A stretch of 51,197 nucleotides of DNA from a virus (Duplodnaviria > Heunggongvirae > Uroviricota > Caudoviricetes). The number at the start of each line of letters is the position of its first letter. Within the stretch, counting starts at the first letter, position 1. The stretch spans positions 64,001-115,197 of the IMG/VR virus record IMGVR_UViG_3300005323_000039; one strand, 5' to 3'. Below, piece after piece: positions 4,531 through 49,998 of this stretch. Below the pieces are notes generated by a model. That model saw only the letters and a list, made by a program, of their open reading frames with translations, was not told the DNA's origin and searched no databases. A program made the position numbers and the translations under genes.

Positions 4531-4603
4531 TGCGCTCGGAGAGATTCGAACTCTCGCCACCTGCTCGGCAAGCAGATATTCTACCAGACTATATTACGAG
4601 CGC
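4531..4603 (-). tRNA. tRNA-Gly(GCC)
   Basis: Acceptor GCGCTCG/CGAGCGC-A, anticodon arm TCTGC-TTGCCGA-GCAGG, T-arm GAGAG-TTCGAAT-CTCTC; CCA not encoded. Confidence 0.95.
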
Positions 4604-4627
4604 GCCAATTTACGCAAATTCTGTGAA

Positions 4628-4700
4628 TAGTCCTGCGAGGATTCGAACCTCGGTTGCTGAGTTCAAAGCCCAGTGTGATTGACCGCTACACTACAGGACT
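4628..4700 (-). tRNA. tRNA-Gln(TTG), archaeal type
   Basis: AGTCCTG/CAGGACT-A acceptor with A1-U72; anticodon arm CTGGG-CTTTGAA-CTCAG; T-arm CGAGG-TTCGAAT-CCTCG. Confidence 0.95.
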
Positions 4701-4713
4701 AATTGTTGTTAGT

Positions 4714-4929
4714 CTAATCATATAACACGATTGTTTCTACATTATATTTTGATACAAGGATTGTAAATGTCTCAATTGATTTAGTAATAGGATTTTCATA
4801 AGAACGTTCCACGATAAACATATCATGATCATCAATTGTTTTTGACCCTTTGTAAATTCCACATACTTCTTCACCAGATACCAATCCAAAGCAATATGAT
4901 TTTCCCCTTTCTAATTCATCTTTTGTCAT
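4714..4929 (-). CDS. hypothetical protein inside the tRNA cluster
   Basis: 71 aa, GAGGT ribosome-binding site upstream. Confidence 0.6.
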   Translation of the reverse strand: MTKDELERGKSYCFGLVSGEEVCGIYKGSKTIDDHDMFIVERSYENPITKSIETFTILVSKYNVETIVLYD

Positions 4930-4952
4930 GTCGTACCTCTTGTTAAGTTGAA

Positions 4953-5073
4953 AGAGTGGGCCAGATTTGCACTGGTCCGTGTACTTTGTTTTCTACCGTT
5001 TGTTTGAAACAAACGATCTATCACGCCCATGCTGCCTAGCTTTATGGGAATCGAACCCTGGACGCCACCACTC
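4953..5073 (-). ncRNA. tRNA-like RNA (acceptor-like stem and T-arm around a non-tRNA core)
   Basis: GAGTGG/CCACTC closing stem, T-arm CCAG-TGCAAAT-CTGG, internal CCCAT/ATGGG and CGTTTGTT/AACAAACG hairpins; no canonical anticodon arm. Confidence 0.5.
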
Positions 5074-5145
5074 AGCCTTCGTACCACCAGATACAGTCCA
5101 AAAGGGAGCGACCCTTTCATACCTTCGTATCCAATATGTGCGAAA

Positions 5146-5229
5146 TGCCAACAGCAGGGCTCGAACCTGCGACCCTCTACGGGACCAGATCTTGAGTCTG
5201 GCGCGTTCTTCCATCTTCGCTATGTTGGC
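5146..5229 (-). tRNA. tRNA-Leu(CAA)
   Basis: GCCAACA/TGTTGGC-A acceptor, CCAGA-CTCAAGA-TCTGG anticodon arm, long variable arm, T-arm GCAGG-TTCGAGC-CCTGC; BRE-TATA at about 5258-5275. Confidence 0.95.
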
Positions 5230-5239
5230 TTCACTCTAG

Positions 5240-5881
5240 TTATACATATAACGAATCTACTATATATACTTTGTTGTTTTCAATCATAGCGTATCTGAAT
5301 CGCGATTTGCTTACATCCAAAGGATTGTACGGATCTACCATGTACAGATTGCTCAAATCATGACTGGAGTATTTGAATAGGGGTGGAGTGTGGCCACAGA
5401 CTTGCAACAATTTGTCATACGGGGCAGCATGGTTCGGTCTATACCACAGAGGACTGTCGTCGTGCCAATGTTCTATCAGATCCATTCCATTCAGAGTTTT
5501 TACAATTTCTTCGATTGGAGTATCGCTTGGAACAAATGTTTCAGATAAACCAGCGTGCGTTATGAGGACTTGATCATGTATAGCGACTATTTTGAATTCA
5601 TTCTGGCGCTCCTCCAATTCATCGTACAGACTCCAGCTATATGGGTCCTGAGGCCCGATAAATTGTTTTAAGACTATAGCAGCTTCGTGATTGCCCCACA
5701 ACATTTCTGCTCCACTCTGACTCAATAGTTTCCAACACTCTATTGGGTTGCATCCAATATCGATAAAATCTCCAGCAAAAATCAATCTGTCGTTGTGTTT
5801 ATCGTAATGTGAATGTGATAGAACGTTCTGGATGAGGTGAGGTTGAGCGTGTGCATCAGCTAAAACAATACAACGTGCCAT
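5240..5881 (-). CDS. calcineurin-like metallophosphoesterase
   Basis: DAH, GDFID, GNHE, THAG and GHTP motifs. Confidence 0.9.
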   Translation of the reverse strand: MARCIVLADAHAQPHLIQNVLSHSHYDKHNDRLIFAGDFIDIGCNPIECWKLLSQSGAEMLWGNHEAAIVLKQFIGPQDPYSWSLYDELEERQNEFKIVAIHDQVLITHAGLSETFVPSDTPIEEIVKTLNGMDLIEHWHDDSPLWYRPNHAAPYDKLLQVCGHTPPLFKYSSHDLSNLYMVDPYNPLDVSKSRFRYAMIENNKVYIVDSLYV

Positions 5882-5887
5882 CTTAAC

Positions 5888-6136
5888 CTACTCTATAGAC
5901 GTATCGTTTATTGCCTTCAATATGAACGATTCAGGTGCATCTTCTCCGTAAAAATGGACCAATACTTCGTCATCTGCTAACATTTCATCAGATTCGTATA
6001 CGCGAGTGTATCCTCCGTCACGATTTGGTCCTATCAATCTATAGTTAAGATTCTTTCTACCAGTTCGTATTATTTCGACACCATCTGAATTATCAATAAC
6101 ATCTAATTGCTCATCTGTTATTATGTAACGTTCCAT
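5888..6136 (-). CDS. hypothetical protein
   Basis: 82 aa, GGTGA ribosome-binding site, co-oriented with neighbours. Confidence 0.6.
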   Translation of the reverse strand: MERYIITDEQLDVIDNSDGVEIIRTGRKNLNYRLIGPNRDGGYTRVYESDEMLADDEVLVHFYGEDAPESFILKAINDTSIE

Positions 6137-6272
6137 TATTTCACCATGTTATGAATATTTGTTTAAATTTTGATCAACGTTTAATTGGTTTTAACGCCGA
6201 GCCAACTGAACTATACTTAGTACGTTAAATTGATATATATACTTTACGCCACACTTTGAACAACGCTTTGTA

Positions 6273-6297: not shown

Positions 6298-6321
6298 TAC
6301 TAAAAATAAATGGATAGGTTA

Positions 6322-6401
6322 GAACCTTGCCTCACCTCGCCATACCACACCGTATCGAACCTATCCGAACCGAACCCAAACAAACCCAGTCGAACCACAT
6401 C
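6322..6401 (-). ncRNA. stand-alone GGY-NN pentamer array (array A; candidate guide RNA)
   Basis: 16 in-phase 5-nt units, 11 with GGY: gatGT ggtTC gacTG ggtTT gttTG ggtTC ggtTC ggaTA ggtTC gatAC ggtGT ggtAT ggcGA ggtGA ggcAA ggtTC; own promoter and T-tract. Confidence 0.85.
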
Positions 6402-6450
6402 TAATGTGCGTTAAGATATACTCAACGCTAATTCGTAATGGTATTTTTTC

Positions 6451-6466
6451 TATTTATACTTTTCGG
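6451..6466 (-). promoter_or_regulatory. archaeal BRE-TATA promoter for array A
   Basis: CCGAAAAGTATAAATA; no sizeable minus-strand ORF between it and the array. Confidence 0.7.
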
Positions 6467-6476
6467 TGGCAACTAG

Positions 6477-7031
6477 ATGACTCTGATAAAATTGACTGCT
6501 TATAATGCATGGCGTCGTGGATTCATAACCGATGACCAATATGAAGTTTATCTTCAGCAAAATCCAGATCCAGAACAAGAAATTATAATAAATTACGATG
6601 AACATTTGCACGAAGTTTATCTTGCTGACGTACATGTGCTCAAACGAGATCCTAATGCTTATATCGACTTAGTTTTTTCACTTGACGGAGCTGGTGCAGA
6701 AATAGCTGACGCAAAGAAAGCATATGCCAGATGTAACGTTAGTGGTAGGATTATTAAAGCAACTGTTCTAGCGGATCAATCAGGTTCAATCGCAATTGAT
6801 GTCTGGAAGAAGACTACATATCCTCCAGCGGATGGCGAATCAATTACAGCAAGCGCCGTTCCAACAATCACAACCAACGTTAGTTCAGAGGATGCAACAT
6901 TGACAGGCTGGAACGTAATGGTCACAGCTGGAGATTACTTCATTGCTAACGTCGATTCTTGTACAACAATAACACATGCTGAACTCATTCTAACGATTGA
7001 ACCTGCTGTACAATATGTCCGGATCGTTTAG
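6477..7031 (+). CDS. virion protein (N-terminal RRGxIT module plus beta-sandwich)
   Basis: C-terminal domain paralogous to 7046-7864 (ADQSGSI..D.WK...YPP....SITA.AVPTI). Confidence 0.65.
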   Translation: MTLIKLTAYNAWRRGFITDDQYEVYLQQNPDPEQEIIINYDEHLHEVYLADVHVLKRDPNAYIDLVFSLDGAGAEIADAKKAYARCNVSGRIIKATVLADQSGSIAIDVWKKTTYPPADGESITASAVPTITTNVSSEDATLTGWNVMVTAGDYFIANVDSCTTITHAELILTIEPAVQYVRIV

Positions 7032-10139: not shown

Positions 10140-10209
10140 AGTAGCGGTAGGGTTATAAACTAGTAGCTATACCAAAAAGTATAAATACTAGAATGTCTAT
10201 TGTACGTTC

Positions 10210-11826
10210 ATGACAGAAAAGATTTTAAATATTTCTGGACACGACGTATCAATAGACGAAAATTTTTCTAAAATATTAAACGCGTATAATTGGCACGTGT
10301 ATTCTCTTGGTACAGGTAAGAGAAAAGAGTATGCAGTGACAAAAGTTTTTGGCGTTACTGTATATATGCATCGTGTCATAATGGAAGAACATCTTGGTCG
10401 AAAGTTAGATCGTTCCGAAGAAATTGATCATATCGATGGAAATAGTCTAAACAACACAATAAAAAATTTACGTGTGTGTTCGCATAAAGAAAATACTTGC
10501 AACAAAAGTAAATTTTCTACATCGTCGTCAGAATATATGGGTGTTTATTACAATGATGCTTATGATGACCCATATCGTGCAAAAATAATGAAAGATGGAG
10601 AAAACATACACATAGGTGGGTTCAAAACACCAAAAGAAGCTGCCGAAGCTCGCGACATAGCATGCCTTATTCATTTTGGACAATTTGCTTGCCTCAATTT
10701 TGAACATGCACGTTCCGAATATTTACAGAAAATTAACGATGGATACAACCCGATACAACCAGCACGTGAAACAACGAGTAAATATAGGGGAGTTAGTCTG
10801 CAGGAAGGCAAGTGGGTTGCACGTGCAAACAACATTTATTTGGGAGTGTTTGATTCAGAGGAGTCGGCAGCAGCCCAACACGATTTAGCATACTTATATA
10901 TTAATGGAGATGTTAAAGAAGGCTTAAATTTTCCAGATAAAACGCCGCAATACATAAAGATGCTGGCGTCTGGCGTGATTCCTGTTCCAGAAAAACAATT
11001 ACCATCCACTGAATATATTGGTGTATCGTATAATAAGGATGCGTGTAAATTTGCTGCTTATGTTGGTAGCGGCGAAAATCGTGTATATTTGGGAATGTTT
11101 AGCACGGCAAAAGACGCAGCTGAAACACGTGATATGGCTGTAATCAAGCTTGGGATTAAGTCTGTTCTAAATTTTGTATCCAAAGAACGTGAATATAGAG
11201 AGAAATTGCGCAACGGATACAATCCAATACCCATTAAAGTTCCTAAATCTAGTAAATATGTTGGAGTTTGTTATACAGAAGGTTCGGATAAATGGATTGC
11301 GTACACACCCTTACCTAACGGAAAGCGTTTCAATATTGGTGCATTTGAAACAGAAGATGCTGCATATGAAGCATTATGTGACACAGAGAGACGTTTGACA
11401 CAATGGGAATATATCACAGATATTAAGCCACGTTCGAATTATCGTGGCGTCAAGAATCAACCTAACGGAAAATTTAACGCAGGCATTTATCACAATGGCG
11501 TGGATTATTCGTTAGGTTCGTACGTAACACCTGAAGAAGCGGCTCAAACATACGATATAGCAGTAATATATTTAGGTGCTGAACACTGGAAGCTCAACTT
11601 TCCAAACCTCACGAACGAATATCGCGCAAAATTGCAATCAGGCTACGTTCCGATTAAAGAAAAACGCACCAAGTCAAGCAAACACAAAGGCGTATCATAC
11701 CGAAAGGATAAGAAACGGTGGCACGCCTACACTCAAGTCGATGGCAAGCGCAAAAACCTTGGGTACTTTGGAACTGAACAAGAAGCAATCCAAGCATATG
11801 ATAAATATATAACAAACCAAAGTTAA
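10210..11826 (+). CDS. HNH homing endonuclease with six tandem AP2 domains
   Basis: MHRVIM...IDHIDGNSLNN..KNLR HNH; six S.Y.GV...W/F.A...LG.F.T.EEAA..D repeats. Confidence 0.9.
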   Translation: MTEKILNISGHDVSIDENFSKILNAYNWHVYSLGTGKRKEYAVTKVFGVTVYMHRVIMEEHLGRKLDRSEEIDHIDGNSLNNTIKNLRVCSHKENTCNKSKFSTSSSEYMGVYYNDAYDDPYRAKIMKDGENIHIGGFKTPKEAAEARDIACLIHFGQFACLNFEHARSEYLQKINDGYNPIQPARETTSKYRGVSLQEGKWVARANNIYLGVFDSEESAAAQHDLAYLYINGDVKEGLNFPDKTPQYIKMLASGVIPVPEKQLPSTEYIGVSYNKDACKFAAYVGSGENRVYLGMFSTAKDAAETRDMAVIKLGIKSVLNFVSKEREYREKLRNGYNPIPIKVPKSSKYVGVCYTEGSDKWIAYTPLPNGKRFNIGAFETEDAAYEALCDTERRLTQWEYITDIKPRSNYRGVKNQPNGKFNAGIYHNGVDYSLGSYVTPEEAAQTYDIAVIYLGAEHWKLNFPNLTNEYRAKLQSGYVPIKEKRTKSSKHKGVSYRKDKKRWHAYTQVDGKRKNLGYFGTEQEAIQAYDKYITNQS

Positions 11827-24776: not shown

Positions 24777-24781
24777 TATAT

Positions 24782-24841
24782 ATATCAAATTTCATCGTAT
24801 CCCGACGTATCTGATCCCATCTTATCTAATCAGAACGCATG
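24782..24841 (-). ncRNA. GAT-NN pentamer array C2
   Basis: 12 units, 8 GAT: catGC gttCT gatTA gatAA gatGG gatCA gatAC gtcGG gatAC gatGA aatTT gatAT. Confidence 0.8.
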
Positions 24842-24901
24842 ACTCCACTACTCGGAGTCTAAGTTGGATATGAGGTATGAATTCAATATCCAACACACTG
24901 C

Positions 24902-24966
24902 GCATCGCATCAAATTATATCCCATCTTATCTAATCAAATCACGTTTCATCTCATCTCGTCGCATA
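24902..24966 (-). ncRNA. GAT-NN pentamer array C1
   Basis: 13 units, 9 GAT: tatGC gacGA gatGA gatGA aacGT gatTT gatTA gatAA gatGG gatAT aatTT gatGC gatGC. Confidence 0.8.
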
Positions 24967-24983
24967 AATGTCAAATATTAAAT

Positions 24984-25253
24984 TTATTCCTCGATGATTT
25001 CTCCATACCATTCTTTGGGCGCTTTTGATCGTAACTCACTATAAAAGTTTGTAAGATCGGCACGAATTTGCTTTAATACAACAGATGTCAATTGTTCGAT
25101 AATGCCTGGTATATTATGATCATCTGTTACATGTTCTTCGTATATGTTGGTCAATTCTTCTATTTTGAGACCAATTTCACGCAATTTTGATAATTCATCT
25201 CGACTTATTTCAATACTGGATGTCATTGTAACACCTGAAATATGAGCAATCAA
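24984..25253 (-). CDS. small helical accessory protein of the RAMP operon
   Basis: 89 aa, translationally coupled to 25254-25757. Confidence 0.6.
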   Translation of the reverse strand: MIAHISGVTMTSSIEISRDELSKLREIGLKIEELTNIYEEHVTDDHNIPGIIEQLTSVVLKQIRADLTNFYSELRSKAPKEWYGEIIEE

Positions 25254-25757
25254 TCATTCGAATTTTGGTTTAATTGGTACTGAACTTACACCACTTTCAT
25301 GTCTACCAGACTTAGGAGATCGTAATGAATCGTACATTGTTTTTACAGTTCCAAGCATTCCACGTCTGACAGACAACTGTGCTCTGTCGGATTCCGGCAT
25401 CAAGTGTTCGATTCTGGACGCAATATTGCACGCTCTGAATCCTCTATCAGCGGCTCTGGCTGCCCTTGACCATTTGTTGTTTACGATGATTGTGGCATTT
25501 TTGCCACCAATCAATTCTATGCCATCTCCTTTGTAGCAATGATACTCGATTTCCATTTTGTACAATACACGACGCATTAAATCTTTTCCATCAGTATCCA
25601 TAACGATTTCAGTGTCGTTTTCGATTTGCTTGTACGATAGGAATTTGCCCATAGGCTTATCTGAAAAATATGTATGGAGTTTGACGTATTCCGCTGAAGG
25701 CATACGTCCTTTGCTCGTTTTTGATTTTTTAGATTTGGTCACTTTTTCACCAACCAA
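25254..25757 (-). CDS. basic accessory protein, possible winged-helix DNA binder
   Basis: Overlaps the RAMP gene stop; GKFLSYKQIENDT...LMRRVL..MEIEY.C..G.GIEL pattern. Confidence 0.55.
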   Translation of the reverse strand: MVGEKVTKSKKSKTSKGRMPSAEYVKLHTYFSDKPMGKFLSYKQIENDTEIVMDTDGKDLMRRVLYKMEIEYHCYKGDGIELIGGKNATIIVNNKWSRAARAADRGFRACNIASRIEHLMPESDRAQLSVRRGMLGTVKTMYDSLRSPKSGRHESGVSSVPIKPKFE

Positions 25758-26302
25758 TTAACGTTTTTGACAGAGAATCTTCCGAACCATCCACGTCTTT
25801 CTGGTCGAAACATTCCAATTCCAATAAACATACCACTAGTTTTGAGATGTTCGATGAAAACATCGCGTGTTATGACTTCATCGAATATGTTGTAGCGAAC
25901 TGTACCTTGCCATTTATCCACAACAGGAAAACATCTATATACTCGGGTGCTTCCACCGACCTTACCATCTGCAGGTACATAAAGCCAATTTGGACGCAAT
26001 CCATCCTTTTTCATGGGAAGTACCAGAGGATCTACGACCATTATTGCTGCATCGAACTTCTTCTTGAATGTTTTGTTTCGCTCACCGGGAACCTTCTTGC
26101 TCATGTATCCTGCAGCACCTTTGATCGAATTAGAAAACATTTCGGGTGGTATTATTACATTACCGTCGGAATCGTAGTGTGCACGATCTTGCCAATGAGT
26201 TTGTTCCCACTCTTCGAATGGCTTTGTTGCGTTCCCTGCATATTTTCCAAACTGCAAAGGTGTTGTACCTTCCAACAAACATTCAGCTATTATTTCTATC
26301 AT
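25739..26302 (-). CDS. Cas7/RAMP-like protein 2 (Vipr-like), linked to GAT-NN arrays
   Basis: N-terminal LEGTTPL strand, VIIPPEMFSNSIKGAA helix, C-terminal Gly loop GMFIGIGMFRPERRGWFGRFSV; alignable to 32831-33397. Confidence 0.75.
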   Translation of the reverse strand: MIEIIAECLLEGTTPLQFGKYAGNATKPFEEWEQTHWQDRAHYDSDGNVIIPPEMFSNSIKGAAGYMSKKVPGERNKTFKKKFDAAIMVVDPLVLPMKKDGLRPNWLYVPADGKVGGSTRVYRCFPVVDKWQGTVRYNIFDEVITRDVFIEHLKTSGMFIGIGMFRPERRGWFGRFSVKNVNWLVKK

Positions 26303-26313
26303 GTAAATACCTC

Positions 26314-26388
26314 ATGTCTTGACTCAAATGGTCGTATCGCATCCAATCAAATCCAATTCTATCATATCGCATTTTATATGATCGCATC
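26314..26388 (-). ncRNA. GAT-NN pentamer array D in the leader of RAMP gene 2
   Basis: 12 core units (8 GAT) gatGC gatCA tatAA aatGC gatAT gatAG aatTG gatTT gatTG gatGC gatAC gacCA plus 3 degenerate units ending at the GAGGT ribosome-binding site. Confidence 0.8.
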
Positions 26389-32724: not shown

Positions 32725-32830
32725 CTGAACACCTACTGCCTCTAATACGTATTAATGCTATTTATAGTTTGTTAAAGTCATAAACAGTTTGACCAAAAGT
32801 TATAAATAATAGAACTACGTTTCAAGTACG

Positions 32831-33397
32831 GTGATTTTGTTGAACACCCTTTCGAAACGTTTTAATGTAGGAATTCGCGGCACGCGCCCTCTTGTCATGC
32901 ATTCAACTCGCGTTATGATGCAAGAGAAATCTGGTCGCGGCGACAGAATGACTGCAGAACAAGAAGTTGAATTATCCTTGTATAAGGATTCATCTGGTAG
33001 TATAGTTGTTCCATCTGAATGCATATTGGCGTGTATGAAAGCTGCAGCAAGTGACTACAAAGTTCCTGGCAAAGGCAAAAAGACATTCAAACAATACACT
33101 GATTCAGGACTCGATATCGAACCAACGATGCCAATTCTTCAATCAGACGGATACGTAACGGATTTGCGTCCTGTTGTCGTACAGAAATCCAGAATTATAA
33201 GAGCTCGCCCCAAATTCGAAAATTGGTCTGTGGAATTTACAATCGTTGTAAATGATTCACTTTGGTTAGACAGCAGTGGTGGTGGCAGAGTTATACGCGA
33301 AATACTGGAATCTGCCGGAAAGTACAAAGGCTTGTTAGAAATGAGACCAAGATTTGGTCGTTTTGAAGTCACAAAATTCGAAGAATCTCCCGACTAA
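32831..33397 (+). CDS. Cas7/RAMP-like protein 1 (Vipr-like), linked to GGY-NN arrays
   Basis: IRGTRPLVMH, LYKDSSG.IVVPSECILACMKAAA, VPGKGKKTFK, RIIRARPKF.NW, AGKYKGLLEMRPRFGRFEV Gly loop; BRE-TATA at about 32792-32808. Confidence 0.8.
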   Translation: MILLNTLSKRFNVGIRGTRPLVMHSTRVMMQEKSGRGDRMTAEQEVELSLYKDSSGSIVVPSECILACMKAAASDYKVPGKGKKTFKQYTDSGLDIEPTMPILQSDGYVTDLRPVVVQKSRIIRARPKFENWSVEFTIVVNDSLWLDSSGGGRVIREILESAGKYKGLLEMRPRFGRFEVTKFEESPD

Positions 33398-33415: not shown

Positions 33416-33440
33416 GGTTCGGTTTGGTAAGGTATGGCTT
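33416..33440 (+). repeat. short GGY-NN array B0 (5 units)
   Basis: ggtTC ggtTT ggtAA ggtAT ggcTT, 18 nt after the RAMP stop; contains the ATG of the next ORF. Confidence 0.8.
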
Positions 33441-33748
33441 CATTAGTCAGATGTTGTGAACCGACATCTCTAGAATTGATTGTTCGCGAGGCATTGAAGT
33501 CTCGCAACATTCAATTTTTGGAGCAAGTTCCCACGAGGTCTGGATTTGTGTTAGATTTTCTTGTTGGAGAACATCTAGTGATTGAAGTTGACGGTCCTTG
33601 CCATGACAGTAGCAAGAGTCGAAAAAGGGATCGTTTTAGAGATAGAATTTTGCGAAACGAAGGATATAAAGTATACAGAATGAATTATTCCACCATAAAC
33701 AATACTCAAAACTTTAATTCAACGTTAGATTTTATCCTCTCTGCATAA
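33434..33748 (+). CDS. DUF559/Vsr-like (EDxHD-type) endonuclease
   Basis: LE.IV..AL....I.F.EQ...GF.LDFL....LVIEVDGPCH...RD..RD..L...GY.V.R. Confidence 0.85.
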   Translation: MASLVRCCEPTSLELIVREALKSRNIQFLEQVPTRSGFVLDFLVGEHLVIEVDGPCHDSSKSRKRDRFRDRILRNEGYKVYRMNYSTINNTQNFNSTLDFILSA

Positions 33749-33759
33749 GAGAGATATCC

Positions 33760-33846
33760 GGTACGTTGCGGCGTGGTAGGTTGGGGTTTGGTATGGTGAG
33801 GTTCGGTGTGTTTCGGTTCGGTGTGGTAGGGTTTTAATATAACCTT
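33760..33846 (+). ncRNA. GGY-NN pentamer array B with terminal hairpin (candidate guide RNA)
   Basis: 15 units, 12 GGY: ggtAC gttGC ggcGT ggtAG gttGG ggtTT ggtAT ggtGA ggtTC ggtGT gttTC ggtTC ggtGT ggtAG ggtTT; hairpin AGGGTT/AACCTT then T-tract. Confidence 0.88.
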
Positions 33847-47709: not shown

Positions 47710-49998
47710 TTGGCGTGGGCACGATTTTTTAGGAGAAAACATTACATGACTTTGCCTTACGTTAAAACCTCTGACGAACATACGTTGCCATGGGATCGAA
47801 ACGCAATTATATCAGAACTCATGAAAGATGTAGATTTTGCGCGTCATTTTTATCCTGCGATCAATTTCACACTAGAGGACGCGAAAAACGTTGCGAAACG
47901 TGCAGAACACCAAGTGATCAAGCTTGGAGAAGATCCAATTAGCTCTGACACAATACGAGGAATTGTCACTTCGATCCTTGTAAAGGACGGCCAATGTGAA
48001 TTGGCTAAAGCTGCGTCACGCGTTGGGATGCCTGCAAGGGAATTTTACGATGTAATAAAAGGAGGTTCTGATTATGACAACGCAAACTTAACACCATCTC
48101 CAGAGACATCCCATAAGATTGTAGCAGACAAGACCTCGAAAAATTGGTACAATCGAATGCTACCAAAAGAGTTAATTGAGAAACATTTATCAGGCGACCT
48201 TCATATTCACGACGAAGAGTACTTTGGGACTAGACCATTCTGTAAATCATGGGACCTTCGATACACTTTTTACTATGGGTTTAAGCCAGACGGCACAGGA
48301 CTTCAAGCGGTGGCAGCTGGCCCTGCCCAACATGCAACCGTTGCTATTTTGCAAGCAACAAAAGTAATGGGAATGGGACAAACTCAGAATTCCGGAGGAC
48401 AAGGATTGCTCCATGGCACAGTTTTCCTCGCTCCTTATATGGAAGGTAAATCTTACGAGGAAATTCATCAATTGTGCCAAATGATGGTGTACGAACTCAA
48501 CCAAATGTATGTATCGAGGGGAGGACAACCCTGCTTCAGCTCGATTAATCTGAATCCTGGAGTTCCTAAAATTCTAGAAAACGCTCCGATAGTATTTAAA
48601 GGCAAAGTGTGGGATGGAACGCATGGTACATCGCGTCGTACATACTCTGAATTTGAACGAGAAGTCCGATTAATGTTTAAAGCTTTTATGGAACTTTCCT
48701 TAAAGGGTGACTACCATGGTAGGTTGTTTCCGTTTCCGAAGGTAGAAGTAGCAATTGAAAAAAAGTTTGTTGACGAAGAAACTTGGAGTATTCCTTTAAT
48801 CGATTCCGAGATGACAAAAACTGCCCCTAGCTACAGAGAACTGTATGAAATGGCATTCGAAGTCGTATCTAAATACGGTACACTCTACTTCGATAATATG
48901 TTACCAGAATATCGTAAGGCAGAGGAGTCGGTGGCGTGCATGCAATGCTGTAGTTTTTCGTTTTCAACTTCACGCGACGAGGACTCATTGTTTGAAGATC
49001 GATTAAACTTTCGCAATGGAGAACATTTTGATTTGGGAGGCATGCAAGCTATCAGTATAAATCTCCCACGTCACGCGTACAAATCCGATCATAACGATGA
49101 ACAATTGATTCGGAACATTCTAAAAACAATGGATATCGCTACTGAAATATTCAAAATCAAGCGTCAAATGATAATCAATAATTCTGACAGACTCCAATTC
49201 CTAACGCAAACTCCAATAGACCCCAATACAGGAAAACTTGGATCTAAATACGTTGATTTCGATAACCTTGTGTATGAGATTGGAATTGTTGGACTAAACG
49301 AAATGGTACAATATCACGTAGGCAAAGAGTTACATGAGAGTCGAGATGCGGTTGAATTAGGTAAAAAGGTGCTCCAAGCAATGAGTATATATTGCAAAAC
49401 GTTAAGTAAAGAACACGGTATGAAAATCGTGCTTGCGCGTACACCTGCCGAAACTGTTAGCCAAAGGTTCGCTGTTTCTGACATGTTCCATACTGTGTAT
49501 GATAAAATGGCTACAAACATTGTTAAGGGTGACTATGTCACAGCGATTGGAAATGCTCACTCTACCCGAAATCTTCCAGTGTTCTACTCCAATGGATTTG
49601 CTCCATCAGTTGGAGCAGATATCAGTTTGTTTGAAAGGCTTGCATTGGAAAATGAATTTTGGCCTTTAATTGATGGTGGAGCAATCACCCACATATGGCT
49701 AGGAGAAGAGTCACCAAATCCAGTCGGATTAATGGACTTCGCCATGAACGTATTCAAGCACACGAACATTGGGTATGTGGCCTTCACTAAAGACATGACA
49801 CAGTGTTCCAACTGCAAAAAAATGCTAAATGGCATTCATACTCATTGTGAATCGTGTGGTTCAAACGACTTAGTAATATACTCCAGAATTACAGGATATT
49901 ATTCGGTTGTAGGCACTGTAAAGGATGGAGTAGTTCATGATAAATGGAATGCTGGCAAGATGGCAGAATTGAAGTCCAGAAAAAGGGTTAACCTTTAA
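47710..49998 (+). CDS. nrdD: anaerobic (class III) ribonucleoside-triphosphate reductase, archaeal type (likely start ATG 47746)
   Basis: ATP-cone-like N-terminus, HLSGDLHIHD, MQCC, INLPR, GIVGLNE, TPAE, Zn ribbon, glycyl-radical YSRITGYY. Confidence 0.97.
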   Translation: MAWARFFRRKHYMTLPYVKTSDEHTLPWDRNAIISELMKDVDFARHFYPAINFTLEDAKNVAKRAEHQVIKLGEDPISSDTIRGIVTSILVKDGQCELAKAASRVGMPAREFYDVIKGGSDYDNANLTPSPETSHKIVADKTSKNWYNRMLPKELIEKHLSGDLHIHDEEYFGTRPFCKSWDLRYTFYYGFKPDGTGLQAVAAGPAQHATVAILQATKVMGMGQTQNSGGQGLLHGTVFLAPYMEGKSYEEIHQLCQMMVYELNQMYVSRGGQPCFSSINLNPGVPKILENAPIVFKGKVWDGTHGTSRRTYSEFEREVRLMFKAFMELSLKGDYHGRLFPFPKVEVAIEKKFVDEETWSIPLIDSEMTKTAPSYRELYEMAFEVVSKYGTLYFDNMLPEYRKAEESVACMQCCSFSFSTSRDEDSLFEDRLNFRNGEHFDLGGMQAISINLPRHAYKSDHNDEQLIRNILKTMDIATEIFKIKRQMIINNSDRLQFLTQTPIDPNTGKLGSKYVDFDNLVYEIGIVGLNEMVQYHVGKELHESRDAVELGKKVLQAMSIYCKTLSKEHGMKIVLARTPAETVSQRFAVSDMFHTVYDKMATNIVKGDYVTAIGNAHSTRNLPVFYSNGFAPSVGADISLFERLALENEFWPLIDGGAITHIWLGEESPNPVGLMDFAMNVFKHTNIGYVAFTKDMTQCSNCKKMLNGIHTHCESCGSNDLVIYSRITGYYSVVGTVKDGVVHDKWNAGKMAELKSRKRVNL

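What the first reader, a model, noticed from the sequence alone, without database searches (positions are those of the whole stretch)
6305..6466. Orphan guide-like array with its own promoter, 26 kb from its RAMP gene
Seen: BRE-TATA CCGAAAAGTATAAATA (6451-6466, minus), about 25 nt of leader, 16 units, an AGGT-TCTA-ACCT mini-hairpin echoing the AGGGTT/AACCTT end of array B, then ATTTATTTTT. No RAMP gene is nearby. Inference: a trans-acting, independently mobile guide gene, analogous to viral mini-CRISPR arrays. The shared GGTT...AACC 3' end may be a loading or capping signal.
Basis: partly seen in the sequence, partly recalled or inferred. Interest (0 to 1): 0.75.

Follow-up and report, generated by a model that had tools for sequence, protein, structure and literature searches.

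The report
Lone VIPR guide-RNA gene in a virus
This short run of five-base repeats is a stand-alone gene for a guide RNA of the virus's own VIPR system, a CRISPR-like, RNA-guided DNA-binding system described in 2026 preprints. It appears to be aimed at rival viruses' versions of the virion gene next door, so it is a good new example of a known kind, not a new kind.

Summary
On the minus strand, window 6322-6396 carries 15 in-register 5-nt units, 11 of them canonical GGY-NN. Upstream lie an archaeal-type BRE-TATA motif (6451-6465) and a 31-nt leader. Downstream lie a weak 3' cap hairpin and a T-run.

Only one other GGY array exists in the 115-kb genome. It lies beside a 188-aa gene (32831-33397) that matches the solved SUSP1 Vipr protein: E 6e-10 alone, 1.5e-22 as a clade profile.

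The array is therefore a solo vrRNA of a VIPR system, 26.4 kb from its likely protein partner. VIPR systems are described in bioRxiv 10.64898/2026.04.26.720920 and .720927, and solo vrRNAs in 10.64898/2026.10.15.759431.

Decoded by the published one-base-skip rule, the guide matches nothing in its own genome above chance. It matches the homologous site of the neighbouring virion gene (6477-7031) in a 60%-identical relative at 22/30. No shuffle out of 2000 reached that, and the skipped bases fall on codon position 3. The virus's own copy scores 17/30. No target at the published 80% level or above was found.

"Trans-acting guide with its own promoter" is supported. "Independently mobile" is not shown.

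This scan has already noted lone VIPR guides beside their near-targets on other DNA. Novelty: new member of a known kind.

The parts
6451..6465 (-). BRE-TATA-type promoter CGAAAAGTATAAATA of the guide gene
   Evidence: the motif class is found about 10 times in 115 kb, nearly all in intergenic DNA. It sits 23 nt upstream of the ATG of vipr1 (32794-32808) and of gene 10210-11826. L014 has GCAAAGTATAAATA before its vipr gene.
6408..6428 (-). Predicted transcript start (about 6428) and 5' leader hairpin GCGTTGAG-TATAT-CTTAACGC (8 bp), followed by an 11-nt linker (6407-6397)
   Evidence: Fold. The start is inferred from the 23-nt spacing. Hairpin plus short linker also precede arrays in relatives L006, L010 and L014, and array B. 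The role is unknown.
6322..6396 (-). vrRNA repeat tract: 15 units of 5 nt, 11 of them GGY-NN. Guide dinucleotides are TC TG TT TG TC TC TA TC AC GT AT GA GA AA TC
   Evidence: The format matches the published vrRNA definition of 9-16 GGY/NN repeats with frequent internal degeneracy.
6312..6327 (-). 3' cap or tail. Mini-hairpin AGGT-TCTA-ACCT (6327-6316). The tail TAACCTATCC (6321-6312) can instead pair with units 7-8 (GGATAGGTT)
   Evidence: inverted repeat I5. The same position and sequence type are seen in array B, L014 v1 and L015. The energy is weak in this copy.
6302..6311 (-). T-run ATTTATTTTT, the likely archaeal-type terminator
   Evidence: Array B and the arrays of relatives also end in T-runs. 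The next promoter copy lies at 6234-6248 (repeat D2).
6570..6613 (-). Site in the neighbouring virion gene (6477-7031, + strand; residues 32-46) homologous to the guide's best target. The virus's own copy matches only 17/30
   Evidence: The skipped bases fall on codon position 3. The match is not above chance within the virus's own genome. The site was identified through the homologue L003 (22/30).
32831..33397 (+). vipr1, the likely protein partner (GGY type), with promoter at 32794-32808
   Evidence: phmmer against PDB 36pp 'SUSP1 Vipr protein' gives E 6e-10. The clade profile gives E 1.5e-22 over the full length. R126 aligns with SUSP1 R138, the contact to G2.
33434..33748 (+). vap: DUF559/Vsr-like nuclease, the candidate effector
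   Evidence: Pfam DUF559 E 6e-10. Every fetched relative pairs vipr with this nuclease.
33770..33834 (+). Array B, the only other GGY array, with the same type of 3' end

Best explanation
Window 6302-6465 (minus strand) is a self-contained gene for a solo VIPR guide RNA (vrRNA).

How it most likely works (all steps inferred from sequence):
1. An archaeal-type BRE-TATA promoter drives a transcript of about 125 nt: a 5' hairpin leader, 15 GGY-NN units and a small 3' cap hairpin, ending at a T-run.
2. Vipr1, made 26 kb away from a near-identical promoter, polymerises on the repeat tract, one protomer per unit. It hides each GGY and presents the NN pairs.
3. The filament reads double-stranded DNA by the published rule of two bases read and one skipped.
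4. The guide is aimed at residues 32-46 of the virion-protein gene that lies next to the array, in the form carried by related rival viruses. The virus's own allele differs at 13 of the 30 read positions and so escapes.
5. Binding would silence the rival gene or, through the Vsr/DUF559 nuclease that always accompanies this Vipr clade, cut it.

What is shown: the sequence architecture, the Vipr homology and the above-chance match to a homologue. What is inferred: expression, loading by Vipr1, and the outcome at the target.
For: - Array statistics and uniqueness.
- The format fits the published vrRNA definition.
- Vipr homology.
- Only two vipr genes in the genome, none nearby.
- Vipr1 keeps the Arg that contacts G2 in SUSP1 Vipr. 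Vipr2, whose arrays are GAY, has Phe there. This points to Vipr1 as the partner.
- The promoter motif is shared with vipr1 and a leaderless gene, and a second copy downstream delimits the unit.
- The 3' cap and T-run are shared with array B and with relatives.
- Guide against homologue L003: 22/30 at the homologous site, next best 17, 0 of 2000 shuffles reach 22. Skip lengths 0, 2 and 3 give only 16-18.
- Among 120 homologous proteins, only the two closest relatives exceed background, both at residues 32-46 (22 and 20, against 18 or less).
- Across a further 95 kb of loci and the 115-kb genome, nothing exceeds 19.
- The skipped base falls on codon position 3, as the papers report for natural targets.
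- Published solo vrRNAs have lower self-match than rival-match.
Against: - No target reaches the published threshold of 80% NN match. The best is 73%.
- Exact searches for the 30-position pattern (viral contigs) and the 22-position pattern (viral, metagenome and genome collections) found nothing.
- Units 12-14 match no known allele. In SUSP1, pairing spreads from the 3' end, so these may be the most important units.
- The self-match of 17/30 is at chance level. The link to the neighbouring gene rests on one DNA homologue plus one protein-level upper bound.
- 4 of 15 units are degenerate.
- The host is unknown. Two Vipr1-clade hits lie in bacterial MAG bins, so the archaeal reading rests on the promoter motif and on the best baseplate hit, a Methanosarcinales virus.
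Confidence: 0.6

Rival explanations
1. Relic guide. The array is left over from an earlier VIPR insertion or an old conflict. It may still be transcribed but no longer has a living target or a function.
For: 4 of 15 units depart from GGY. No target at 80% or above was found in any collection. The 3' units match nothing known. VIPR-null phages are known to keep solo vrRNAs after a vipr-vap deletion.
Against: The promoter is intact and nearly identical to that of vipr1. The T-run and cap are intact. The level of degeneracy is like that of arrays next to vipr genes in relatives, 71-87%, and the paper notes frequent degeneracy. No trace of vipr or vap lies nearby. Public sampling of this virus group is very thin, with only 3 full-length homologues of the target gene.
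Confidence: 0.13
2. Decoy or anti-VIPR guide. The RNA soaks up or redirects a rival virus's Vipr, as satellite solo vrRNAs do, and does not arm the virus's own Vipr1.
For: There is a published precedent for solo vrRNAs acting as decoys. The RNA is made from its own strong promoter.
Against: The genome encodes a likely partner Vipr of the same GGY type with the same kind of tail. The guide tracks a single-copy viral structural gene, not a repeated host element.
Confidence: 0.08
3. Self-regulation. Vipr1 loaded with this RNA binds the virus's own gene 6477-7031 weakly and tunes its expression.
For: The best local match lies 174 nt away, inside the adjacent gene. Six of the first seven units pair perfectly with it.
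Against: Overall 17/30 is at chance level. The papers found no natural self-targets at 80% or above. The relatives' alleles match better than the virus's own.
Confidence: 0.06
4. Not a guide RNA. The tract is instead a DNA-level or protein-binding repeat, for example a two-tetrad G-quadruplex tract or a TRAP-like wrap-around RNA site for another protein.
For: A GG every 5 nt could form weak G-quadruplexes. This was my first reading, before the Vipr homology was checked.
Against: The only other such array sits beside a true Vipr gene. The variable dinucleotides carry a codon-phased match to a homologue, which none of these models predicts.
Confidence: 0.03

Closest known systems
Solo (orphan) vrRNAs of VIPR systems on F5 satellites and SUSP1-family phages (bioRxiv 10.64898/2026.10.15.759431)
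   Same: A GGY-NN repeat tract plus a 3' element, encoded away from any vipr gene. It is wobble-phased to a coding target, and its self-match is lower than its match to relatives. The published definition counts an array as solo if the nearest Vipr lies more than 20 kb away. The likely partner here is 26.4 kb away.
   Different: The genome here is VIPR-positive and carries two systems. The nearest vipr of any type is the GAY-type paralogue, 19.3 kb away. The virus is probably archaeal and the promoter is of BRE-TATA type. The tail is a tiny hairpin, not a roughly 40-nt pseudoknot. The partner cassette carries a Vsr/DUF559 nuclease instead of the DNA-binding vap1. The guide sits next to the gene family it matches, a layout I did not find described in the sections I read or in word searches of that paper.
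Type II VIPR of Escherichia phage SUSP1 (bioRxiv 10.64898/2026.04.26.720920 and .720927; PDB 36pp)
   Same: A Vipr homologue (E 1.5e-22 for the clade profile), vrRNAs of 9-16 GGY-NN units, and the one-base-skip reading that alone gives a signal here.
   Different: About 25% sequence identity. The accessory gene is a nuclease, which the paper reports for types III-V. I could not assign the type because the classification tables were not available to me. Tail structure and promoter type also differ.
Free-standing homing endonucleases of phages (T4 Seg/Mob, HNH-AP2 type) with intronless homing or marker exclusion
   Same: A selfish element sits next to the gene whose foreign alleles it recognises, while the resident allele is protected by sequence differences. 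This genome also carries an HNH-AP2 endonuclease gene under the same promoter motif.
   Different: Recognition here would be RNA-guided and supplied in trans from 26 kb away. Cutting and gene conversion are not shown. This is an analogy only.
Viral mini-CRISPR arrays
   Same: A virus-borne guide gene without adjacent effector genes, probably aimed at related viruses.
   Different: There is no repeat-spacer-repeat structure and no Cas6-type repeat. The guide is read discontinuously. It is not a CRISPR array.

Membership tests
VIPR vrRNA | Tandem 5-nt units with conserved GGY and variable NN, 9-16 units, internal degeneracy allowed | tested here: met
   15 units, 11 of them GGY. The run is far beyond Markov surrogates.
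VIPR vrRNA | A Vipr (minimal RAMP) protein encoded by the same element | tested here: met
   Gene 32831-33397 against PDB 36pp SUSP1 Vipr gives E 6e-10. The clade profile gives E 1.5e-22 over the full length. The gene lies 26.4 kb away, in the same genome.
VIPR vrRNA | A conserved structured 3' tail after the repeat tract | tested here: inconclusive
   A small hairpin that pairs the last pseudo-unit, followed by a T-run, recurs in array B, L014 and L015. In this copy it is only 4 bp and no more stable than shuffles. No pseudoknot is seen.
VIPR vrRNA | NN dinucleotides spell a natural target by the one-base-skip rule, with the skips on wobble positions (published cut-off 80% NN match or above) | tested here: inconclusive
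   The best natural match is 22/30 (73%), in the homologue of the adjacent gene, with skips on codon position 3 and 0 of 2000 shuffles reaching it. Only skip 1 gives a signal. Nothing reaches 80%.
VIPR vrRNA | Expressed as an RNA of about 100 nt that co-purifies with Vipr | not testable with these tools
Only promoter and terminator motifs support expression.
Solo vrRNA (published definition) | [quoted passage not shown] | tested here: inconclusive
   The likely GGY-type partner vipr1 is 26.4 kb away, but the GAY-type paralogue vipr2 is 19.3 kb away.
CRISPR array / viral mini-array | Direct repeats of 20-50 nt that alternate with unique spacers | tested here: not met
   Only 5-nt periodicity is present. 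No longer repeats were found, and there was no Rfam hit.
Homing element (RNA-guided) | Cleavage of the element-free or foreign allele, followed by copying of the element by repair | not testable with these tools
   Only the layout fits: the guide lies beside a mismatched resident allele, and a nuclease partner is in the cassette.

The most novel reading that the evidence does not exclude
The solo guide is one half of an RNA-guided, homing-like drive. Vipr1 and the Vsr/DUF559 nuclease, supplied in trans, would cut the rival allele of the virion gene during co-infection. Repair from this genome would then copy the resistant allele together with the adjacent guide gene, and perhaps the accessory block of tRNA and phosphoesterase genes. 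On this reading a guide kept next to its immune allele spreads as a selfish marker without carrying its own protein genes. Two arrays in relatives (L010 and L015) show the same partial match to genes flanking their cassette, and this scan has noted the 'guide beside its near-target' layout on other DNA.
Probability: 0.2. Interest if true: 0.8.

Novelty: new member of a known kind. Interest (0 to 1): 0.42.

Why it matters
VIPR systems were described only in 2026, and almost all functional work is on one Escherichia phage clade. This locus adds several things:
- a clean case, probably from an archaeal virus, in which a guide gene is separated by 26 kb from its protein and has its own promoter;
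- a Vipr clade that always travels with a small Vsr-type nuclease;
- a genome in which two Vipr paralogues with different fixed triplets (GGY and GAY) coexist, which gives a natural test of guide-protein specificity;
- a guide placed beside a mismatched copy of its apparent target gene, which bears on how such guides avoid self-targeting and on whether they can spread in a homing-like way.

None of this changes the known mechanism. It widens its range and gives testable constructs.

Tried and rejected
- Rfam at gathering thresholds found only three tRNAs.
- blastn of the region against 50,697 phage records found no match.
- The sigma-70 promoter and intrinsic-terminator scan found nothing convincing.
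- My first reading, a TRAP-like wrap-around RNA or a G-quadruplex tract, was dropped once the Vipr homology and the codon-phased match were seen.
- Self-targeting: the best hit in the virus's own genome is 19/30, equal to the shuffled-guide null. The 17/30 hit in the neighbouring gene is not significant on its own.
- Exact target searches found nothing: the 30-position pattern in viral contigs, and the 22-position pattern in viral, metagenome and genome contigs.
- Homologues of the target gene: none in viral contigs and one distant hit in metagenome contigs. For two of the three full-length homologues no DNA could be fetched.
- Array B's guide against the virus's own genome and against L001 and L004 gave no significant hit in my parse. 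This is the subject of other reports.
- Guides of relative L004 against this genome gave only weak hits of 19/30.
- Mobile-element signs around the array: only weak AT-rich inverted repeats.
- Host assignment through Vipr1-clade hits in genomes gave two short or MAG contigs binned as bacteria, which is not decisive.
- The near-identical contig L002 is 100% identical and so uninformative.

Full report
**1. The observation**

The minus strand of window 6302-6465 reads, in order:
- CGAAAAGTATAAATA (6465-6451);
- a 22-nt spacer;
- an 8-bp hairpin GCGTTGAG-TATAT-CTTAACGC (6428-6408);
- an 11-nt linker;
- 15 in-register 5-nt units (6396-6322);
- TAACCTATCC;
- ATTTATTTTT (6311-6302).

Eleven units are GGY-NN and four are degenerate (GAC, GTT, GGA, GAT).

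The periodicity is not chance. The genome's best run is 12 GGY in 15 consecutive units, against at most 7 in 100 first-order Markov surrogates of the 115,197-bp genome. A scan of every dinucleotide at period 5 finds only five arrays in the whole genome. Two are GGY type: this one, and array B at 33770-33834. Three are GAT type, at 24777-26388. No ORF of 40 aa or more covers the tract, and Rfam has no family for it.

**2. What kind of thing it is**

My first reading was a wrap-around RNA site for a ring protein. A look-up of earlier notes from this scan pointed to VIPR systems. I then read the three preprints and tested their defining features here.

According to bioRxiv 10.64898/2026.04.26.720920:
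- vrRNAs carry 9-16 GGY/NN repeats with frequent internal degeneracy, followed by a structured 3' tail;
- a minimal RAMP protein, Vipr, binds one unit per protomer;
- the NN pairs read double-stranded DNA with one base skipped per unit, and the skips usually fall on wobble positions.

The 188-aa gene next to array B (32831-33397) matches the solved SUSP1 Vipr chain (PDB 36pp) at E 6e-10. A profile of 30 relatives matches it at E 1.5e-22 over the full length. A second 187-aa paralogue (25739-26302, minus strand) sits among the GAT arrays. tblastn finds no third copy.

The array in question is therefore a vrRNA-type gene 26.4 kb from vipr1 and 19.3 kb from vipr2.

**3. Which protein loads it**

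- The array is GGY type and shares its 3' end with array B.
- In SUSP1 Vipr, R138 makes the salt bridge to G2.
- That residue aligns with R126 of Vipr1, which is invariant in the clade.
- It aligns with Phe in Vipr2, whose arrays have A at the second position.

This points to Vipr1 as the partner. It is an inference from alignments.

**4. Transcription unit**

A search for the BRE-TATA-like pattern gives about ten sites in 115 kb, nearly all in the 12% of the genome that is intergenic. Those that bear on this unit:

| Site | Motif | Position relative to gene |
|---|---|---|
| Before vipr1 | CAAAAGTTATAAATA | ends 23 nt before the ATG |
| Before gene 10210-11826 | CAAAAAGTATAAATA | ends 23 nt before the ATG |
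| Before the GAT array in front of vipr2 | similar motif | upstream of the array |
| Relative L014, before its vipr | GCAAAGTATAAATA | upstream of vipr |

The 23-nt spacing to leaderless start codons fits archaeal promoters. That reading rests on established knowledge of the archaeal TATA box at about -26. The best baseplate hit is a Methanosarcinales virus.

Applied here, transcription would start near 6428, the first base of the leader hairpin. It would end at the T5 run 6306-6302, giving an RNA of about 125 nt. A second copy of the motif at 6234-6248 (repeat D2) probably starts the next gene (5888-6136). The guide would then be a unit of its own.

None of this is direct evidence of expression.

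**5. The 3' end**

- L014's first vrRNA ends in AAGGGTTCTAAACCTT followed by a T-run.
- L015's terminal array ends in an 8-bp hairpin that also pairs its last repeat unit (-16.8 kcal/mol against -7.0 +/- 2.4 for shuffles).
- Relative L010's terminal array ends in a sequence much like this one.

In this copy the hairpin is only 4 bp and no better than shuffles (-5.1 against -4.3 +/- 2.0). The tail can instead pair with units 7-8. A capping role is plausible but unproven.

**6. Target**

I concatenated the 15 NN pairs with one wildcard between them and scanned both strands.

| Sequence scanned | Best score | Note |
|---|---|---|
| Own genome | 19/30 | equals the shuffled-guide null, mean 19.6 |
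| Own neighbouring gene, 6570-6613 | 17/30 | best local hit; not significant in a 9-kb neighbourhood, p = 1.0 |
| L003 (P0002, 60% identical), homologous site | 22/30 | next best in locus 17; 0 of 2000 shuffles reach 22; skips 0, 2, 3 give 16-18 |
| P0003 (58% identical), protein-level upper bound | 20/30 | same site, residues 32-46 |
| The other homologous proteins among the 120 | 18 or less | background |
| A further 95 kb of fetched loci | 19 or less | apart from L003 |

The local hit at 6570-6613 lies inside the neighbouring gene 6477-7031. That gene is a 184-aa protein with a virion-structural-type C-terminal domain. The skipped bases fall on codon position 3.

The gene has only three full-length homologues in 5.8 billion proteins.

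Read as codons, the guide spells [DE][FL]SS[IM]TV[DE]Y[DE][DE][HQ][KN][HQ][DE]. The known alleles at this site are:
- the virus's own allele: PEQEIIINYDEHLHE;
- P0002: DGRIITIDYDEHKYE;
- P0003: EDQIVTVDYDAHKYK.

The guide is thus a mosaic of this family's variants and is nearer to the relatives than to the virus's own allele.

No allele at the papers' cut-off of 80% or above was found. Exact searches for the 30-position and 22-position patterns found nothing in viral, metagenome or genome collections. The four 3' units fall in the most variable part of the protein and match no known allele. That matters, because in SUSP1 pairing spreads from the 3' end.

**7. Mechanism and rivals**

The best-supported reading (about 0.6) is a solo guide that arms Vipr1 in trans against rival alleles of the adjacent virion gene, with the resident allele protected by mismatches.

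Every fetched relative of Vipr1 is paired with a DUF559/Vsr-type nuclease. The cassettes sit in different genomic contexts: before a portal gene, a peptidase gene and a very large gene. The outcome may therefore be cutting, not silencing, but this is untested.

Two arrays in relatives also match genes flanking their cassette above chance: L010 at 22/34 (p = 0.007) and L015 at 27/40 (p < 0.003). Most arrays do not.

The rivals are a relic guide (0.13), a decoy for foreign Vipr as in satellites (0.08), self-regulation (0.06) and a non-guide repeat (0.03).

**8. Comparison with what is known**

Solo vrRNAs are already published, in F5 satellites and in 346 VIPR-null Enterobacteriaceae phages. Their self-match is lower than their match to rivals, and their targets are wobble-aligned. 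The published caller counts an array as solo if the nearest Vipr is more than 20 kb away.

What differs here:
- the virus is VIPR-positive and probably archaeal, with two orthogonal systems;
- the accessory gene is a nuclease;
- the tail is a minimal hairpin;
- the guide is placed beside the gene family it matches.

I did not find 'homing', 'distal' or 'archaea' in the October preprint.

This scan's own earlier notes report lone VIPR guides beside their near-targets on several other genomes. I did not check those.

**9. Verdict**

The class is a new member of a known kind. Interest is moderate. The most novel reading still open is RNA-guided, homing-like spread of a guide kept beside its immune allele, at about 0.2.

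Noticed in passing
window 10210-11826 (+), promoter motif ending at 10187: A 538-aa HNH_3 + AP2-domain protein, of the free-standing homing-endonuclease type, sits among virion genes. Its promoter motif is nearly the same as that of the guide gene and of vipr1. The gene order on a relative's contig (191 aa, then 196 aa) has no gene of this size at that place.
   Followed up: partly
window 25739-26302 (-) versus 32831-33397 (+): The Arg that contacts G2 of the GGY motif in SUSP1 Vipr (R138) is kept in Vipr1 (R126) but is Phe in Vipr2, whose arrays use GAT/GAC. This is a candidate specificity switch between two coexisting systems.
   Followed up: partly
window 33416-33440 (+): A five-unit GGY mini-array lies between vipr1 and the nuclease gene and overlaps the nuclease start codon (ATG at 33434). 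L006 and L014 show the same layout.
   Followed up: no
window 6312-6323 and 6355-6366: The tail TCTAACCTATCC is complementary (11 of 12) to units 7-8 of the same array. This gives an alternative long-range helix that would loop out units 9-15.
   Followed up: partly
L014 3024-3440; L006 4560-5060; L010 1680-2450: In relatives, successive vrRNAs are separated by a repeated hairpin (for example AAATCTCY-loop-GGGAGATTAAA in L014). This is reminiscent of CRISPR repeats or of per-unit promoters. Array A and array B each have an unrelated hairpin at the same relative position.
   Followed up: partly
L006, L007, L010/L011, L012, L014, L015: The vipr-DUF559 cassette lies in different genomic contexts in different viruses: before a portal gene, before a PKD/peptidase S8 gene, and before a 1490-aa gene. 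That suggests the cassette itself moves.
   Followed up: partly
window 4531-5229 (-) and 5240-5881 (-): The guide gene lies at the edge of a minus-strand accessory block with three tRNA genes (Gly-GCC, Gln-TTG, Leu-CAA), a calcineurin-like phosphoesterase and small ORFs. The relative's contig appears to lack this block: its 184-aa gene follows a co-directional gene after 38 nt.
   Followed up: partly
window 47710-49998 (+): An anaerobic ribonucleotide reductase (NrdD, E 7e-135) with an ATP-cone domain, consistent with an anaerobic host.
   Followed up: no
L004 1477-1551 versus window 33194-33237: The first array after vipr in relative L004 has its best hits inside vipr genes: 18/30 in its own and 19/30 in this virus's. 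This is weak, but it recalls the published vipr-targeting guides.
   Followed up: partly
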